Shown here: in pieces, positions 8,895-14,964 of the stretch
Layout of the letters: every line of letters starts with the position of its first letter
Position numbering within the stretch: the stretch's first letter is position 1
Source: a virus
Lineage: Duplodnaviria > Caudoviricetes
Length of the DNA stretch: 64,000 nt
Strand: one strand, 5' to 3'
IMG/VR virus record: IMGVR_UViG_3300021400_003144
Position numbers and translations under genes: made by a program
The notes under the pieces: generated by a model
What the model saw: only the letters and a program-made list of their open reading frames with translations
Told to the model about the DNA's origin: nothing
Databases searched by the model: none

Positions 8895-9887
8895 ATGGTT
8901 AAAAGTTTAGGTAGAGCTTCAGTTCTCAAAGAGATACAGAGTAAGGCTATGAAGTATAGCATCAGAATTGTAAGTTTAAGTGATATGAAATACAGAATAG
9001 AGCTTAGTGGAGTTTCTATTACATTTGGAAGTGAAGAAGTAATAGTCCATGATTCTGTTAGAGGCAAAGTGATTTTACATGCTTACAAAATTGAGATAAT
9101 TGATGAAGATGATGGAATAGTCAAGCTATTATTTTATGTAGGTAGAACTGTTGGATTACCTTATGGATTCATATATGAAATAGATATAACAGTAAAAGGA
9201 CTAGGGTGCAGGACAAAGATAAAGCCAGATAAAACTAATGTATATAGTGCATATGATAATATAGGAAGCTTAACATATGCTCAGCTTATGAATGTGGTAA
9301 GCGACTATAAAAGTCTGAGTAATATGGAGTATAGGACAATAGTAAAAGGAAATTTACCTTATTTCAATAGAAACATATCAGAGTTAATTAGCTTATTGAG
9401 CAATATGTTTGAGCGTCTACCTAAAGGAAATGTACCTGAGGGCTATGATGATTCACTTTCACAGTTAGTAAAGAGTTATCAGTCTGGATATGACTTTTAC
9501 ATTAATAAAGATTATTATAAGCTGGCTTATGAAGATGGGTCTTTTACTTATTTTAAAGTTAACAGTAGCTGTTATGAATTACTAAAAATAAACAGATTTA
9601 TTGTTAATGAATATAGTTCTGAGAATGTGGATGACTTTAAAAGTATAAGAGTTTTAAAAGATAAGCATAAAGAATTTACACAATACATAACATTGGAAGA
9701 GAATGGTGCTTTCAGTGTTATATTTAATCTTATAAATAATATGTATTACATAAGGTTTAAGATATTCTTGTTAGATTGTTTTGATAAATATGAAGAAGCT
9801 AGAAATTCGTTAGAAATACTTGGTGGAAATAACTCAAACATAAGTGAATTTCAAGACAGTATAATAAAAGAAGTATATGCTATATAA
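8895..9887 (+). CDS. hypothetical protein
   Basis: ORF with AGGAG RBS. Confidence 0.75.
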   Translation: MVKSLGRASVLKEIQSKAMKYSIRIVSLSDMKYRIELSGVSITFGSEEVIVHDSVRGKVILHAYKIEIIDEDDGIVKLLFYVGRTVGLPYGFIYEIDITVKGLGCRTKIKPDKTNVYSAYDNIGSLTYAQLMNVVSDYKSLSNMEYRTIVKGNLPYFNRNISELISLLSNMFERLPKGNVPEGYDDSLSQLVKSYQSGYDFYINKDYYKLAYEDGSFTYFKVNSSCYELLKINRFIVNEYSSENVDDFKSIRVLKDKHKEFTQYITLEENGAFSVIFNLINNMYYIRFKIFLLDCFDKYEEARNSLEILGGNNSNISEFQDSIIKEVYAI

Positions 9888-9923
9888 TTTAAGGAAATAC
9901 ATTAAGGAGATTGAGGATAAAAG

Positions 9924-10721
9924 ATGATTACGGAAGTAAGAAACAGGGAATTTAGTAATGGAAAGGTTTATATGCTTAGAACTGAAGATGGGTTTCCATT
10001 GGAAACAACAGATACATTTCTTCCATACTATACTAAGGATTGTATAAATGAACATACAAATGAATTAAAGAGTGATGTACTTGGAACGAGGAAAGACAGA
10101 TGGATGATTGGAGTAAGCTGTATGTCAGGTTGTCCAGTTCATTGTAAGTTCTGTAGTACTGGTAAGTTAAAGAAGTGGAGAAACTTGACAGCTGATGAAA
10201 TTTTTGAGCAAGTAAAATTTATTTTAGATAAAAATAAAGATTACAAGCCTGAAGATGCTAAAGAATTTAAAATTAACTATACACGCATGGGTGAGCCTTT
10301 TCTTAACATTGAAAATGTTAAGAAAGCTATGAAGTTAGTTGATGAGTATGTAGGAGATGGAGTAAGAGTTCATCACTATATAAGTACAGTAGGCATTAAG
10401 GGAAGTGATTTCTCATGGATTAAGGATAACATAACATTACAGCTGAGTTTACATAGTCTTGATGAAGATAGAAGGCATGATTTAATTCCAATAAGTAATT
10501 TAATGAGCATTGAGGAATTGGGTCAGGTCAGAACAGAAAGTAATTTAAAGACTACATTAAATATGACTCTTGTAGATACAGCTGATTTTGATATTAATAA
10601 GCTTACTAAGTATTTTGATAAGGATTATTTCTTTATTAAGCTTAGTCCTATAAATGAGAATGATATAAGCAAAGAAAATAATATGGGTGCTGGAATTATA
10701 AAAGGACAGAATATAATCTAG
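9924..10721 (+). CDS. RlmN/Cfr-like radical SAM protein, N-terminal/core part lacking the AACGQL end
   Basis: GVSCMSGCPVHCKFC, RNLTADEI, RMGEPFLN, ISTVG, LQLSLHS are RlmN-family motifs; ends before the C-terminal Cys motif. Confidence 0.85.
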   Translation: MITEVRNREFSNGKVYMLRTEDGFPLETTDTFLPYYTKDCINEHTNELKSDVLGTRKDRWMIGVSCMSGCPVHCKFCSTGKLKKWRNLTADEIFEQVKFILDKNKDYKPEDAKEFKINYTRMGEPFLNIENVKKAMKLVDEYVGDGVRVHHYISTVGIKGSDFSWIKDNITLQLSLHSLDEDRRHDLIPISNLMSIEELGQVRTESNLKTTLNMTLVDTADFDINKLTKYFDKDYFFIKLSPINENDISKENNMGAGIIKGQNII

Positions 10722-10744
10722 CATAAAAGGCATAGGAGGTTGCA

Positions 10745-11575
10745 ATGGACAGTAAGTATAATCTAAACGCATTATCTTTTCTTATCGGAAGTTTAAGGGA
10801 TGTGGTTAATAACTTTGGGGCTAATGATAAGTCAGCAGCGTTTTATAGGTCACAGGTTAATAATTTAGTTAATCTTGGACAGTTAAATGAAGTGGATGCT
10901 AATTTGGTTGAGGAACTTGTAGATTTAGACCATCTAAATCATTGGAATAGCAATCAAGTTATGTTAGATAAGTTTACATATTGTATTAACATAGTTCTAT
11001 CAAACGCTTGCCTTAATGGTGATATTATTAAGGCTGACGCTGATAGAATTTTATCATATATAAATAATACTGAAGATACTCAATATATGAGAAAATCAGT
11101 TAAATTAGCACGTAAGGTTCTTGGAGTACCTGAGAATAAAACAGAGAGTAAACCTAACTGGAAATGTAGCACTCAATTTGGTACAAATAAGTTCAGCCAG
11201 AAGGCTATGCAGAATAATAAACCTGTGGCTAAGTCTGTAGATAAGTCTGTAGATAATAAAACTTATAATTTATCAGAAATTAAAAGTGACTTATCTAAAA
11301 GTATAATTAAAGCTGTTAGACCTGGTATGGTATTGGACATAAAGAACATAAATGCAGTATGTAGCAGTGATACTCCATTTTTTAGATACAAATTGCAGGA
11401 TGTAATAAGGGATGAAAAAACAATACTAGAGATAATAACAAAGTTTAAGAATGGATATCCTGTTATGATAGGTGAACTTATAGATGATGGGTGTCATATA
11501 ATAGGTTGTAATAGAAATGAGGAGTATAGCAATATACTTATTGCAAAATTGAATGAGTATGCAAAGTTGATATGA
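10745..11575 (+). CDS. hypothetical protein
   Basis: AGGAGG RBS; ATGA overlap with the next gene. Confidence 0.8.
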   Translation: MDSKYNLNALSFLIGSLRDVVNNFGANDKSAAFYRSQVNNLVNLGQLNEVDANLVEELVDLDHLNHWNSNQVMLDKFTYCINIVLSNACLNGDIIKADADRILSYINNTEDTQYMRKSVKLARKVLGVPENKTESKPNWKCSTQFGTNKFSQKAMQNNKPVAKSVDKSVDNKTYNLSEIKSDLSKSIIKAVRPGMVLDIKNINAVCSSDTPFFRYKLQDVIRDEKTILEIITKFKNGYPVMIGELIDDGCHIIGCNRNEEYSNILIAKLNEYAKLI

Positions 11576-12429
11576 TACATATAAAAGATATTAGGGTTCA
11601 GACTAAAACATGTCTTAAAAATGGAAAGACTCAACATGATTTAGGTAAGGTTTTACAATTATATGTAGTAACCACTAGAAAGTGTAATGCGAGCTGTGAG
11701 TTTTGTGAGTTTAAGGGTGAAGTTGAGAAAGTAAATCTTGTTAAGTTTAAAGAGACTTTTGAGAAATTAAGTAAATACTTTTATATAAGTGCAGTACATT
11801 TTACTGGTGGTGAACCTTCACTTGAAATTGATACAATAAGAGATATTTGTGATTACATTAAAGAAAAAGATGTATTCATATTTACAAGTGCCAATACAAA
11901 TGGTATTAAGTTGAATGAGCTTAAGGAGATTAAGAATCTTGATAATGTAGCTCTTAGTAGACATGGGTTAAGTCAGAAAGAAAATGAGAATATATTTAAA
12001 ACAAGTAGTATAGCAAATGAGGATGACATAAAGAACTTTCCTAAAAACAAGTTACATCTAAGTTGTAACATGATAAAAGGTTATGTGGACAGTGAAGAAA
12101 AGATATATGACTACTTGGATAAGTATTCTGACTTAGGTGTTTATGATGTAGGTTTTGTAAATCTGATGAAAATAAATGAGTACTGTAAAGAAAAATTTGC
12201 AGAGTTTCCAAAAGAGCTTAGTAAATGTACTCAGACAAAGAGGTTTCAGAATATACAAGATGATATAGAAACTTGCCAGTGTAGAAACTGGTTATATAGT
12301 AATAAGAATTGTAACTTTGTATCCATATATAACAGGCATGTAGTTGGTAAGTCTGACTTAGTTGGAGCATTAATCTATGAAAATAACAAGTTATATGCTG
12401 GTTGGGGTGGAGAAGAGATACAAATATAA
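11572..12429 (+). CDS. radical SAM protein
   Basis: CNASCEFC, FTGGEP, NTNG; C-terminal CQC. Confidence 0.9.
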   Translation: MIHIKDIRVQTKTCLKNGKTQHDLGKVLQLYVVTTRKCNASCEFCEFKGEVEKVNLVKFKETFEKLSKYFYISAVHFTGGEPSLEIDTIRDICDYIKEKDVFIFTSANTNGIKLNELKEIKNLDNVALSRHGLSQKENENIFKTSSIANEDDIKNFPKNKLHLSCNMIKGYVDSEEKIYDYLDKYSDLGVYDVGFVNLMKINEYCKEKFAEFPKELSKCTQTKRFQNIQDDIETCQCRNWLYSNKNCNFVSIYNRHVVGKSDLVGALIYENNKLYAGWGGEEIQI

Positions 12430-12461
12430 AAATTAAATAAATTAAAGAAGGAGAAATTAAC

Positions 12462-12590
12462 ATGGATAAGATTATTGAAGCACTTAAAGATGCAGGGTAT
12501 GACTATGGTGTTGCTATTGCTACTCAGGCGGAGATTAAAGCTGGAGCAGCTTGTGGTCAATTAAGTTTAATTGTTGAGAACGAAAAGTAA
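12462..12590 (+). CDS. 42-aa peptide equivalent to the RlmN C-terminal segment (MDKIIEALKDAGYDYGVAIATQAEIKAGAACGQLSLIVENEK)
   Basis: Own AAGGAG RBS; contains AACGQL; below the ORF-track length cutoff, translated by hand. Confidence 0.85.
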   Translation: MDKIIEALKDAGYDYGVAIATQAEIKAGAACGQLSLIVENEK

Positions 12591-12681
12591 GAAGTAAGTA
12601 AAGGCAGTTAGTTAAAGAGTAATTATGCAGCTGCATTTGTATATAAATTTGGATAGGATTAGGATAGACTGGAGATTTTAG

Positions 12682-14964
12682 ATGAAACGTGTGGATTTAA
12701 CTGGAAAGACATTTGGAGAATTACTTGTACTTAGATATCTAGGGGATAAAACATATGTATGCAGATGTAGCTGCGGAAAAGAGATTGAGGTAGCAACATA
12801 TAGTCTGACAAGCGGAAAGAAAACTTCATGCGGACATGATAGAGTTAAAACTAATCTCAAGGGTAAAATGATTGGCAACTGGAAAGTTCTTGAGTACAAT
12901 AATGATGGAAGATGGTTGTGTGAGTGTCAGTGTGATAAGCATACAAGAAGATTGCTATATACTAACACACTTACAACTGGGAAGAGTCTGAGCTGTGGTT
13001 GTCAAGTAAAGCATACAGAGTTATTAAAAGATAAACCAGGTGATGTATATGGTGAATGGACATTATTAGAGCCATTACATAATGGAAAGTGGCTATGCAG
13101 ATGCAGTTGTGGAACTGTAAAAGAGGTAAATACAAATCAACTTCATAGTGGACAGAGTAAGAGCTGTGGGCATAGCAGATATGAAGCTAGAGTAGACTAC
13201 AAGGGTAAAAACATAGGTGACTATGGGGTTCTAGAATATATAGGTAATAGGATTTGGAAGTGCAAGTGTTTAAAATGTGGAGAGATTAAAGAAATAAGCC
13301 AAGCAAACTTAAAGGCTGAGGTTGGAACCAGATGTTCTAAAATAACATACAGAGAGAATCTTGTAGGAAAAATGTTTGGAAGATGGCAAGTTCTAGCATA
13401 CAGCGGAGATGGAAAGTGGATTTGTGAGTGCAGTTGTAAAAATCATACAAGAAGAGAGATTGAGACACATGTACTAAAATCTGGAAACAGTAAGAGTTGC
13501 GGATGTTTAATACATGATTTTGCTAGAGAGACACAGCTAAAAGACTTAACAGGTCAGATATTTGGAAACTGGAAAGCTATTGAGTATGCTGGAGACAGAA
13601 AATGGAGATGTGAGAATATTAAAAGTCATGAAATTAGAAACATACAAGGTTATAGCTTAACAAATGGATTAAATAAAGGAACAGCTAACAGGTATTCAGA
13701 CAATATAAATATAGGTGATAAATTTGGTAGATGGACAGTTATAGGTAAAGCTGGAGCAGAGCAATCTTATAAAATAATATGTCAGTGTAGCTGTGATAAA
13801 AAGACAATAAGGCTTATAAATGGTGCTTTCTTAATAAATGGATTGACTAAGAGTTGCGGATGTTTACAGGGTGAGCTTAGAAAGCAAGTACTGATTCAGA
13901 AGTATGGTGAAGTAGCTACTAATAAGGTGAATAAGCCTAGAGAAAAATGGCAGATAGAAGCTTTAAATAGCAAATATAACTTAGAGAACTATATTAATGC
14001 TATTGAAGATAAGACAGTAGTAAATATAGCAAATGGATTGGGTATAACTAGAGCTATCGCTCTTAGATATATACATAAGTATGGATTGGAATCTATTATA
14101 GAGTTCAATACTATGTCATCCTCTTATGAAAAGGAAATTGTAGAATTTATAAGAGGACTTGGAATTACAAATATAGTAACAAATGATAGAACTTTGATTA
14201 ATCCTTATGAAATTGATATATACTTACCGGATTTAAGAATTGGAATTGAGTTTAATGGTACATATTGGCATAGTAATATTTTTAAAAATAAGAAGTATCA
14301 TCAAGCTAAGTCAATATATGCATATCGTAAAACAGTAAAATTAATTCATATATTTGAATATGAATGGAGAACAAACAAGGAAGAAATTAAGGAGTACCTT
14401 AAAACTAAAATATGTGGACCAACTCAGTCAGTCTCTGCACGTAATACATATATTAAGCATGTAGATAGAGATGAAGCTATTGATTTTTTAGAGGAAAATC
14501 ATTTGCAGGGTTATGCTGAGTCATCAATCAATTTAGGTTGTTATTATAATAATGAGTTAATTGGTATAATGACTTTTGGAAAGCCTAGATTCAATAATGA
14601 ATATGAGTATGAAATTATAAGGTCTGCTTGGAAGAAAGGATATGCTGTAACAGGTGGTATAGAGAAATTATTTAAGCATTTTATAACAGAGTATACACCA
14701 AATAATGTAATGAGCTATTGTAATATAGCTAAGTTTGATGGTGGAAGCTATGGTAGATTAGGATTTAAGCTTGTAAGTATAACTGAACCAAACTATGTAT
14801 GGGTTAAAGACAATACTGTACTTTCAAGATACAAGACAACAAAGAAAGACCTATTAGATGCTGGTATTGGTACAGAGGAAGATACTGAAGATAGCATTAT
14901 GGAGAATTTAGGATACCTTAAGGTTTATGATTGTGGCAATTATAAGTTTGTTTGGAATAAATAA
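12682..14964 (+). CDS. free-standing homing-type endonuclease: 7 Cys-rich Zn-binding repeats, PD-(D/E)XK/Vsr-like nuclease and C-terminal Hef-like domain
   Basis: 7 repeats of G-x-x-FG-x-W-x-V...CxCxCG...SCG; YEIDIYLPDLRIGIEFNGTYWHS; FLEENHLQG...YDCGN. Confidence 0.75.
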   Translation: MKRVDLTGKTFGELLVLRYLGDKTYVCRCSCGKEIEVATYSLTSGKKTSCGHDRVKTNLKGKMIGNWKVLEYNNDGRWLCECQCDKHTRRLLYTNTLTTGKSLSCGCQVKHTELLKDKPGDVYGEWTLLEPLHNGKWLCRCSCGTVKEVNTNQLHSGQSKSCGHSRYEARVDYKGKNIGDYGVLEYIGNRIWKCKCLKCGEIKEISQANLKAEVGTRCSKITYRENLVGKMFGRWQVLAYSGDGKWICECSCKNHTRREIETHVLKSGNSKSCGCLIHDFARETQLKDLTGQIFGNWKAIEYAGDRKWRCENIKSHEIRNIQGYSLTNGLNKGTANRYSDNINIGDKFGRWTVIGKAGAEQSYKIICQCSCDKKTIRLINGAFLINGLTKSCGCLQGELRKQVLIQKYGEVATNKVNKPREKWQIEALNSKYNLENYINAIEDKTVVNIANGLGITRAIALRYIHKYGLESIIEFNTMSSSYEKEIVEFIRGLGITNIVTNDRTLINPYEIDIYLPDLRIGIEFNGTYWHSNIFKNKKYHQAKSIYAYRKTVKLIHIFEYEWRTNKEEIKEYLKTKICGPTQSVSARNTYIKHVDRDEAIDFLEENHLQGYAESSINLGCYYNNELIGIMTFGKPRFNNEYEYEIIRSAWKKGYAVTGGIEKLFKHFITEYTPNNVMSYCNIAKFDGGSYGRLGFKLVSITEPNYVWVKDNTVLSRYKTTKKDLLDAGIGTEEDTEDSIMENLGYLKVYDCGNYKFVWNK

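What the first reader, a model, noticed from the sequence alone, without database searches (positions are those of the whole stretch)
9924..12590. Split RlmN/Cfr-like radical SAM enzyme: catalytic AACGQL segment on a separate 42-aa peptide, two genes downstream
Seen: 9924-10721 carries the RlmN core motifs but stops at ...IKLSPIN...GQNII. The missing end appears as a small ORF with its own RBS at 12462-12590 (MDKIIEALKDAGYDYGVAIATQAEIKAGAACGQL...). Between them lie a 276-aa unknown and a second radical SAM gene. Established: in E. coli RlmN the Cys of DIDAACGQL (C355) is methylated by SAM and supplies the methyl carbon, while C118 resolves the covalent adduct. Here the C118 position is Gly (GVSCMSGC vs CVSSQVGC), with a Cys three residues later. 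Inference: neither half looks decayed, so this may be a two-chain enzyme. The peptide could be a detachable methyl carrier, a tag left cross-linked to an RNA or other substrate, or a RiPP-like substrate shared by both radical SAM proteins. The four genes may form an undescribed phage modification system.
Basis: partly seen in the sequence, partly recalled or inferred. Interest (0 to 1): 0.8.

Follow-up and report, generated by a model that had tools for sequence, protein, structure and literature searches.

The report
Two-piece phage RlmN-like radical SAM system
This giant gut phage makes a relative of the RNA-methylating enzyme RlmN in two pieces, a 265-residue body and a separate 42-residue peptide carrying the key cysteine, with a second radical SAM enzyme and its own cysteine-bearing partner protein encoded in between; well over a hundred related phage and phage-like loci share the split, I found no paper on it, and its target is still unknown.

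Summary
Observation confirmed. The four ORFs are as described: core 9924-10721, 276-aa protein 10745-11575, second radical SAM 11572-12429, peptide 12462-12590.

- **Homology.** Core and peptide align to consecutive parts of RlmN (E 8e-43 and 6.6e-7). The resolving-Cys position is Gly, and no non-cluster Cys is conserved in the core.
- **The split is conserved.** The peptide is a separate ORF in about 64 of 68 IMG/VR loci, 46 of 48 loci from genome assemblies, and in cultured phages down to 33-35% core identity. No C-terminal fusion was seen. Rare fusions place the peptide at the core's N-terminus.
- **Complex model.** It passes (0.81 vs best control 0.01), but RlmN is a solved single chain, so this may be from memory.
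- **New here.**
  - The 276-aa "unknown" belongs to a conserved family with two invariant Cys, found beside the second radical SAM.
  - In all four contexts sampled from that enzyme's relatives, the core and peptide lie within about 2 kb.
  - NAD+ salvage genes lie within 5 kb in 15 of 68 loci.
  - The enzyme lacks RlmN's RNA-binding domain and is net acidic.

Best reading: a two-chain RlmN-type enzyme that finishes its reaction differently from RlmN, on a non-ribosomal target, possibly an adenine nucleotide. The scan found this family before on at least 15 other genomes.

The parts
9913..9917 (+). Shine-Dalgarno-like GAGGA 6 nt before the core ATG (a second AAGGAG lies at 9904-9909)
   Evidence: read from the sequence
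9924..10721 (+). Core: RlmN/Cfr-like radical SAM domain, 265 aa. It has no N-terminal HhH2 domain and no C-terminal Cys loop.
   Evidence: TIGR00048 E 5.5e-24; PDB RlmN/Cfr hits; hhalign to RlmN columns 79-295, E 8e-43; 59-81% identical homologues in more than 110 loci
10110..10112 (+). Gly63 codon, at the position of RlmN's resolving Cys118
   Evidence: alignments; Gly in at least 90% of 42 family members
10131..10154 (+). CxxxCxxC [4Fe-4S]/SAM cluster motif (C70, C74, C77)
   Evidence: invariant in alignment A1
10734..10739 (+). AGGAGG ribosome-binding site of the 276-aa gene
   Evidence: read from the sequence
10745..11575 (+). 276-aa partner protein of the second radical SAM. It has an N-terminal helical domain, a disordered linker and a C-terminal alpha/beta domain. 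The two invariant Cys are C206 (11360-11362, AVCSSD) and C250 (11492-11494, DDGCH).
   Evidence: no Pfam, NCBIfam or PHROG hit; homologues beside rsam2 in L213/214, L215, L218 and L003 (E 2e-22 to 1e-9); model pLDDT 65 with no fold match
11572..12429 (+). rsam2: second radical SAM enzyme, 285 aa, MoaA/viperin-like fold. Cluster Cys are C38/C42/C45. Four further conserved Cys are C14, C165, C235 and C237. Its start overlaps the partner's stop (ATGA).
   Evidence: Pfam PF04055 and NCBIfam MoaA/viperin/NrdG hits, all below cut-off; alignment A4; model pLDDT 83, Foldseek top hits MoaA and viperin; core adjacent in 4 of 4 contexts sampled from its own homologues
12448..12453 (+). AAGGAG ribosome-binding site 8 nt before the peptide ATG
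   Evidence: read from the sequence
12462..12590 (+). 42-aa peptide homologous to RlmN's C-terminal beta7 strand plus Cys355 loop; Cys31 at 12552-12554
   Evidence: hhalign to RlmN columns 304-340, prob 92, E 6.6e-7; nine invariant columns in 34 sequences; complex model places residues 13-17 against core strand 236-240

Best explanation
This is a conserved phage two-chain enzyme of the RlmN/Cfr (class A radical SAM methylase) type.

**Proposed mechanism**
- The 265-aa core holds the [4Fe-4S]/SAM site.
- The 42-aa peptide, translated separately from its own ribosome-binding site, docks as the missing beta7 strand and brings Cys31 into the active site.
- By analogy with RlmN (inferred), Cys31 is S-methylated by one SAM. 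A 5'-deoxyadenosyl radical from a second SAM abstracts a hydrogen, and the Cys-S-CH2 radical adds to an sp2 carbon of the substrate.
- The family has Gly at the resolving-Cys position and no other conserved Cys, so the adduct cannot be resolved as in RlmN.
- Either another base or an external thiol releases a methylated product, or the peptide is consumed in each turnover.

**Likely target (inferred)**
Probably not rRNA or tRNA. Three things point away from RNA and towards a free or conjugated adenine nucleotide:
- the HhH2 RNA-binding domain is absent;
- the holoenzyme is net acidic;
- the module sits repeatedly beside or between phage NAD+ salvage genes.

**This phage lineage**
The pair works with an accessory cassette: a MoaA/viperin-like radical SAM plus its Cys-motif partner protein.

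**Shown versus inferred**
Shown: homology, the conserved split, the missing Cys, the co-occurrence. Inferred: the chemistry, the target, the role of the cassette.
For: **Homology of both pieces to consecutive RlmN segments:**

**Split conserved**
- About 64/68 IMG/VR loci and 46/48 genome-assembly loci.
- Cultured Kehishuvirus, Moorella, Vibrio D479, Pectobacterium and Yersinia phages, down to 33-35% core identity.
- No C-terminal fusion among the 150 listed cluster representatives.
- Gene order varies: the peptide is upstream in L060, and separated from the core in about 15 loci.

**1:1 assembly**
- Natural N-terminal fusions of peptide to core (P0009), and of peptide plus core plus a second radical SAM domain (P0024).
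- Complex model ipSAE 0.81 vs best control 0.01. That mark was reached by 58 of 80 solved complexes and 2 of 110 mismatched pairs. The runs agree in at least 91% of contacts, and partner pLDDT is at least 77.
- This pass may be from memory of single-chain RlmN structures.

**Active gene**
- A LAGLIDADG-type intein sits at the third cluster Cys in P0004; L063 carries a similarly enlarged 600-aa core ORF.

**No resolving Cys**
- Gly63 in at least 90% of members; only the three cluster Cys are invariant.
- C118/C105 mutants of RlmN and Cfr trap the covalent adduct (PMC9692996; 10.64898/2026.02.27.707579).

**Not RNA-like**
- No N-terminal domain.
- Median charge is core +1 and peptide -4, against +6 for full-length RlmN relatives.

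**NAD link**
- NMNAT-Nudix and/or NAMPT within 5 kb in 15/68 loci, scattered over the core tree and sometimes flanking the module.
- 0/44 loci of a single-chain sister clade; Fisher p 4e-4.
- NARP2 occurs in about 1.1% of sequenced phage genomes (10.1101/2024.02.11.579819).
- An RlmN-like-Nudix fusion lies next to NAMPT and NMNAT.

**Cassette coupling:**
Against: - No biochemical data exist.
- The complex pass may only reflect likeness to solved RlmN.
- The NAD+ salvage association holds for about a fifth of loci, is absent from this 64-kb window, and could reflect shared residence in accessory-gene islands.
- Loci are phylogenetically non-independent, so the Fisher p is only indicative.
- The single-chain sister clade shows the NAD link only in one Vibrio phage group.
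- Net charge is weak evidence about the substrate.
- Other single-chain RlmN-like families also lack C118, so the missing Cys does not by itself explain the split.
- The N-terminal fusions argue against a need for excess peptide.
Confidence: 0.6

Rival explanations
1. It is an ordinary catalytic RNA methyltransferase (m2A or m8A on host or phage tRNA or rRNA) that happens to be encoded in two pieces. Another residue or water replaces C118 as the base, and the peptide is a permanent subunit.
For: - Closest known families are RlmN and Cfr.
- The peptide is deeply embedded in the model, with about 150 contacts.
- N-terminal fusions exist.
- A single-chain phage relative sits inside a tRNA gene cluster in Stenotrophomonas phage BUCTxx99.
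Against: - The HhH2 domain that anchors RNA in RlmN and Cfr is missing (10.64898/2026.02.27.707579).
- C118/C105 is reported as indispensable (PMC9692996).
- The holoenzyme is net acidic.
- The tRNA-cluster relative keeps both Cys and is single-chain.
Confidence: 0.22
2. The peptide is a consumable reagent. Each turnover leaves it covalently joined to the target through a methylene thioether (a tag or covalent trap), or strips its sulfur or carbon. On this view the small piece is made separately and in excess.
For: - A natural equivalent of the C118A/C105A crosslinking mutants: Gly63 and no conserved spare Cys (PMC9692996).
- The peptide has its own strong ribosome-binding site.
- No C-terminal re-fusion despite gaps of 2-60 nt in dozens of lineages.
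Against: - The N-terminal fusions P0009 and P0024 would be single-turnover enzymes.
- The peptide looks like an integral strand of the fold.
- No adduct has been observed.
Confidence: 0.25
3. The peptide is the substrate. On this reading it is a RiPP-like or cofactor-like precursor, tailored by the core and by the accessory radical SAM enzymes and methyltransferase encoded between core and peptide.
For: - Accessory radical SAM genes sit between core and peptide in about 15 of 68 IMG/VR loci and more than 20 of 48 genome-assembly loci.
- The cluster layout resembles RiPP loci.
Against: - The peptide is conserved along its whole length, with no leader/core pattern.
- It is homologous to an enzyme segment.
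- No SPASM or RRE domain was found.
- rsam2 has its own Cys-motif partner.
- Most loci have no accessory enzyme at all.
Confidence: 0.1
4. The split is a decaying pseudogene, or the halves are joined by RNA or protein splicing.
For: The two genes are 1.7 kb apart in this window.
Against: - Both pieces are under strong conservation in more than 110 loci.
- They are adjacent, with their own start codons and in different frames, in most loci.
- The order is reversed in L060.
- The intervening DNA encodes two conserved proteins.
- No Rfam intron was found.
- The intein found in some relatives sits elsewhere, at the cluster motif.
Confidence: 0.02

Closest known systems
RlmN (23S rRNA A2503 / tRNA A37 C2-methyltransferase; TIGR00048; PDB 3RF9/3RFA, 4PL1, 5HR6/5HR7, 6FZ6)
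   Same: - Radical SAM core with CxxxCxxC, MGEP and SLH-type motifs.
- A beta-extension before the core.
- A C-terminal beta7 strand plus an AACGQL Cys loop.
   Different: - The Cys loop is on a separate 42-aa chain.
- The resolving Cys118 is Gly.
- The N-terminal HhH2 RNA-binding domain is absent.
- A roughly 25-residue conserved insertion precedes the cluster motif.
- The score is far below the family cut-off (84.8 vs 290 bits).
Cfr (A2503 C8-methyltransferase; TIGR04432; PDB 9P0P)
   Same: Same class A mechanism and fold.
   Different: Same differences as for RlmN. There is no evidence for an antibiotic-resistance function.
RlmN C118A / Cfr C105A laboratory mutants
   Same: They lack the resolving Cys and therefore trap a covalent Cys-CH2-adenine adduct (PMC9692996; 10.64898/2026.02.27.707579).
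   Different: Those are engineered, dead-end, single-chain enzymes. This is a natural, conserved design whose end product is unknown.
YfiD/GrcA and T4 Y06I autonomous glycyl-radical 'spare part' proteins (from my own knowledge)
   Same: A small separate protein carries the catalytic residue of a radical enzyme's C-terminal segment.
   Different: Different enzyme family and chemistry. There the small protein repairs a damaged full-length enzyme; here no full-length form exists.
Phage NAD+ reconstitution pathway NARP2 (Nampt + Nmnat/Nudix; 10.1101/2024.02.11.579819)
   Same: Genomic neighbour of the module in 15/68 IMG/VR loci.
   Different: It is not homologous. No functional link has been shown, and it is absent from this window.

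Membership tests
RlmN/Cfr class A radical SAM methylases | CxxxCxxC cluster motif and SAM-binding motifs in an RlmN-like core | tested here: met
   C70/C74/C77 are invariant and MGEP is conserved; hhalign prob 100, E 8e-43
RlmN/Cfr class A radical SAM methylases | Methyl-carrier Cys (C355/C338) in the C-terminal loop of the same polypeptide | tested here: not met
   The core ends before it. The Cys is on a separate 42-aa ORF, so the feature is met only in trans.
RlmN/Cfr class A radical SAM methylases | Resolving Cys (C118/C105) seven residues before the first cluster Cys | tested here: not met
   Gly63, which is Gly in at least 90% of 42 members. No other Cys is conserved.
RlmN/Cfr class A radical SAM methylases | N-terminal HhH2 RNA-binding domain | tested here: not met
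   The core aligns only from RlmN column 79, and no N-terminal domain is present.
RlmN/Cfr class A radical SAM methylases | Score above the curated family cut-off | tested here: not met
   TIGR00048 84.8 bits vs cut-off 290; Cfr models 56-60 bits vs 468-550
RlmN/Cfr class A radical SAM methylases | m2A or m8A formation on A2503 or A37 | not testable with these tools
   needs biochemistry
RiPP precursor plus radical SAM maturase | Precursor with a conserved leader and a variable core; maturase with an RRE or SPASM/twitch domain | tested here: not met
   The peptide is conserved throughout. No SPASM or RRE hits in the core, rsam2 or the cl5 radical SAM.
Glycyl-radical activase with small glycyl-radical protein (for rsam2 and its partner) | Activase family score above cut-off; RVxG[FYW]-type Gly motif in the partner | tested here: inconclusive
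   NrdG/PflA-type models hit only at 21-36 bits, below their cut-offs. Partner motifs (D-P/G-C-x-x-G) resemble the Gly motif loosely, and it is exact (CGY) in only one locus. Foldseek ranks MoaA and viperin above PflA.
Gene split by an intron or intein | An intron RNA or Hint domain at the split point | tested here: not met
   No Rfam match in 9000-13500. The intervening DNA encodes two conserved proteins. The inteins seen in relatives lie at the cluster motif, not at the split.

The most novel reading that the evidence does not exclude
The peptide is a sacrificial covalent reagent. The core uses radical chemistry to weld it, through a Cys-S-CH2 bridge, onto the adenine ring of an NAD/ADP-ribose-derived molecule or another nucleotide signal. 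Equivalently, the peptide donates a one-carbon or thiomethyl unit and is spent. This would give phages a new kind of counter-defence or nucleotide-modification chemistry that travels with NAD+ salvage genes.
Probability: 0.12. Interest if true: 0.92.

Novelty: new variant of a known kind. Interest (0 to 1): 0.72.

Why it matters
RlmN and Cfr are the textbook case of methylation through a protein-bound methyl-Cys and a second, resolving Cys. Here nature has removed the resolving Cys and put the methyl-carrier Cys on a detachable peptide. This design is kept across crAss-like, FelixO1-like, T4-like-sized and giant phages.

- **Enzymology.** It offers a natural system to ask how the adduct is resolved without C118, and whether a peptide can act as a diffusible radical methyl carrier.
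- **Phage biology.** It defines a widespread, unannotated module with optional radical SAM cassettes and a recurrent link to NAD+ salvage genes, which are known counter-defence genes.
- **Testability.** Culturable carriers make it directly testable: Kehishuvirus tikkala, Moorella phage MTATph1, Pectobacterium phages Arno18 and Wc4, Yersinia phage P778, and Vibrio phage D479.

Tried and rejected
- The peptide alone against PDB sequences gave only chance helical-repeat hits.
- Pfam, NCBIfam, PHROGs and the ESM Atlas gave nothing for the 276-aa protein. Its AlphaFold model (pLDDT 65) has no Foldseek match with E at or below 0.001.
- The rsam2 fold search gave only generic radical SAM neighbours (MoaA, viperin, BlsE, SuiB, PflA), so no specific function could be assigned.
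- IMG/VR scans seeded with rsam2 proteins were too insensitive, returning 1-2 loci. I used the search for homologous proteins and contig look-ups instead.
- The NAD-gene association was tested in a single-chain sister clade and was absent there (0/44). I therefore do not claim it for RlmN-like phage enzymes in general.
- Contexts of three further short RlmN-like representatives were too short to inform.
There is therefore no RNA evidence on expression or splicing.
- Literature searches for a split or phage RlmN/Cfr, or for a radical SAM anti-defence gene, found nothing relevant.
- Rejected readings: Cys66 at -4 as a substitute resolver (not conserved); pseudogene or splicing (see rivals).
Full report
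**1. The observation**

The + strand carries four tightly packed ORFs:
- core, 9924-10721 (265 aa);
- a 276-aa protein, 10745-11575;
- a second radical SAM gene, 11572-12429 (285 aa), whose ATG overlaps the preceding stop as ATGA;
- a 42-aa ORF, 12462-12590, with AAGGAG 8 nt upstream.

No + strand terminator-like site lies inside the block. No Rfam family, intron or otherwise, matches 9000-13500.

The core hits RlmN TIGR00048 at model positions 97-244 (E 5.5e-24, 84.8 bits, cut-off 290). It hits the Cfr models more weakly, and solved RlmN/Cfr chains. The peptide alone finds nothing in family libraries or in PDB sequences.

Profile comparison settles the homology. The core family aligns to RlmN columns 79-295 of 354 (prob 100, E 8e-43). 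The peptide family aligns to columns 304-340 (prob 92, E 6.6e-7), ending on the AACGQL Cys.

**2. The split is a family trait, not an accident**

- An IMG/VR scan with the core returned 68 loci at 59-71% identity, on contigs of 5-350 kb. In about 64 of them the peptide is a separate ORF. It usually lies 2-60 nt after the core or overlaps it in another frame. It is sometimes 0.7-2.7 kb away, and once upstream (L060).
- A scan of one genome per prokaryotic species returned 48 family members, mostly phage-like contigs binned into gut MAGs. Of these, 46 have a separate peptide.
- Cultured phages carry it too: Kehishuvirus tikkala (62%), Moorella phage MTATph1 (43%), Vibrio phage D479 (37%), Pectobacterium phages Arno18, Arno162 and Wc4 (34.5%), and Yersinia phage P778 (33%).
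- Among the 150 best cluster representatives of a 1.8-billion-protein library, no member of the family has the Cys motif at its C-terminus.
- Two representatives have the peptide fused to the N-terminus of the core (P0009), or peptide plus core plus a second radical SAM domain in one chain (P0024).
- P0004 carries a LAGLIDADG-type intein exactly at the third cluster Cys, a site typical of functional genes. L063 has a similarly enlarged 600-aa core ORF.
- The peptide has nine invariant columns in 34 sequences. The core has 21 invariant columns in 42 sequences, and only the three cluster Cys among them.
- The Cys at -4 varies (Thr, Val or Cys), so it is not a substitute resolver.

**3. Do the pieces assemble?**

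A complex model of core and peptide, with a 4Fe-4S cluster and SAM riding along, scored 0.81 against a best control of 0.01.
- That mark was reached by 58 of 80 solved complexes and 2 of 110 mismatched pairs.
- The runs agree in at least 91% of contacts, and partner pLDDT is at least 77.
- The counts hold only roughly here, because my own alignments and ligands were used.

Peptide residues 13-17 pair with core strand 236-240. The peptide also touches residues 76-79, next to the cluster, and 120-122. RlmN is solved as a single chain, so this pass may come from memory. It shows likeness, not binding.

**4. The two middle genes**

rsam2
- It is a MoaA/viperin-like radical SAM by sequence and fold.
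- It has four conserved Cys beyond the cluster motif.
- In ten IMG/VR loci a homologue lies within about 4 kb of the core, often between core and peptide.
- Starting from rsam2's own homologues, all four contexts sampled contain a core and a peptide within about 2 kb.

The 276-aa protein
- The 276-aa "unknown" is not an orphan.
- L213/L214 are contigs of 405-451 kb whose core is 81.5% identical. They have the same order: core, a 300-aa homologue, rsam2, a 44-aa peptide.
- L215, L218 and L003 carry homologues in other orders (E 2e-22 to 1e-9).
- The family has an N-terminal helical domain and two invariant Cys, C206 in AVCSSD and C250 in DDGCH.
- In more distant loci the protein beside rsam2 is an 80-150-aa protein. 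In six of eight such loci it has a D-P-C-x-x-G motif, and it nearly always ends in Cys.
- rsam2 therefore has its own Cys-bearing partner.

The alternative cassette
- A second cassette occupies the same place in other lineages, including most relatives at 65-73% identity. It is a different MoaA/viperin-like radical SAM plus a 148-aa class I SAM-methyltransferase-like protein.

Overall: core and peptide form the universal pair, and the cassettes are optional add-ons.

**5. What is the target?**

Known chemistry: RlmN and Cfr methylate via S-methyl-Cys355/338. Mutants of C118/C105 trap a covalent protein-RNA adduct. The HhH2 N-terminal domain anchors the RNA (PMC9692996; 10.64898/2026.02.27.707579).

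The phage family lacks both C118 and that domain. Median net charge is +1 for the core and -4 for the peptide, against +6 for full-length RlmN relatives.

Neighbour clustering found no universal partner. It did find the phage NAD+ salvage pair:
- NMNAT-Nudix and/or NAMPT (Pfam) lie within 5 kb in 15 of 68 loci.
- They often abut or flank the module (L010, L014, L023, L063, L007).
- They are scattered over the core tree.
- Weaker hits occur in 9 of 48 genome-assembly loci.

NARP2 is reported in about 1.1% of sequenced phage genomes (10.1101/2024.02.11.579819). A single-chain sister clade served as a control and showed 0 of 44 (Fisher p 4e-4). The loci are not independent, so that p is only indicative.

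Related hints:
- a single-chain RlmN-like-Nudix fusion directly before NAMPT and NMNAT (L078);
- an RlmN-like gene after Prs and Nampt in Vibrio phage 166E36-1;
- fusions of short RlmN-like domains to isochorismatase and HD domains;
- a PARG-like gene two genes upstream of the core in L218.

This window has no NAD salvage gene. I read this as moderate evidence for an adenine-nucleotide or NAD/ADPR-related target. It is also compatible with mere co-residence in accessory-gene islands.

**6. Verdict**

The two-chain reading is well supported by comparative genomics.

My split for how the cycle ends:
- about 0.45 for catalytic release by another base or thiol;
- about 0.3 for a consumed peptide;
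- about 0.1-0.15 for the peptide as substrate.

My split for the target:
- about 0.35 for a nucleotide or NAD-related small molecule;
- about 0.25 for RNA;
- about 0.1 for DNA;
- the rest for other targets.

I found no paper on the split family. The scan has noted the same family on at least 15 other genomes, and earlier follow-ups also left the target unknown.

- the identification of the 276-aa protein's family and its pairing with rsam2;
- the tight dependence of rsam2 on the core;
- the N-terminal fusions;
- the NAD+ salvage association, with a control.

Noticed in passing
window 12682-14964 (+): A 760-aa gene lies directly after the peptide. It matches phage homing/HNH endonuclease PHROGs (phrog_3339 E 1e-88, phrog_559). 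It has several N-terminal Cys-rich repeats and weak Mom-like and REase_MTES_1575 hits. It is probably a mobile endonuclease, not part of the system.
   Followed up: partly
L063:3759-5561 and protein P0004: In some relatives the core gene carries a roughly 340-residue LAGLIDADG-type intein, inserted so that the third cluster Cys is the +1 residue of the C-extein.
   Followed up: partly
proteins P0009 (L075:44-991) and P0024 (L074:67-2154): These are natural fusions: the Cys peptide at the N-terminus of the core, and in P0024 a second radical SAM domain at the C-terminus. In P0009's contig another radical SAM gene follows directly.
   Followed up: partly
L078:2043-5374: A single-chain, two-Cys RlmN-like domain fused to a Nudix domain is followed directly by NAMPT-family and NMNAT-like genes on a phage-like contig.
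   Followed up: partly
L077:6001-7587 (bacterial MAG): A C118-less single-chain RlmN-like domain is fused to an isochorismatase-family hydrolase, next to NifU and an aldehyde dehydrogenase. Two further such fusions (P0086, P0132) and an HD-domain fusion (P0100) exist.
   Followed up: no
L070 (Pectobacterium phage Arno18) 3504-5963; L083 (Yersinia phage P778) 7992-12148: In these roughly 90-kb enterobacterial phages (Arno18 is classified in Ounavirinae) the core and peptide are followed by TerC-like and, in P778, TerD genes.
   Followed up: no
L006, L007, L008, L026, L031, L042, L043, L216 (ORFs beside rsam2): Small proteins of 80-150 aa with a helical N-terminus lie beside rsam2. Six of the eight have a D-P-C-x-x-G motif, and nearly all have Cys as the very last residue. 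They look like substrates or carriers for rsam2.
   Followed up: partly
L218:4109-4921 and 11844-13779: A close relative of the window's module lies two genes after a microbial PARG-like (ADP-ribose glycohydrolase) gene and a few kb before McrBC-like genes.
   Followed up: no
L072 (Stenotrophomonas phage BUCTxx99) 2974-3933: A single-chain, two-Cys RlmN-like gene inside a phage tRNA gene cluster is annotated as 'prohibitin family protein', which looks like a mis-annotation.
   Followed up: no
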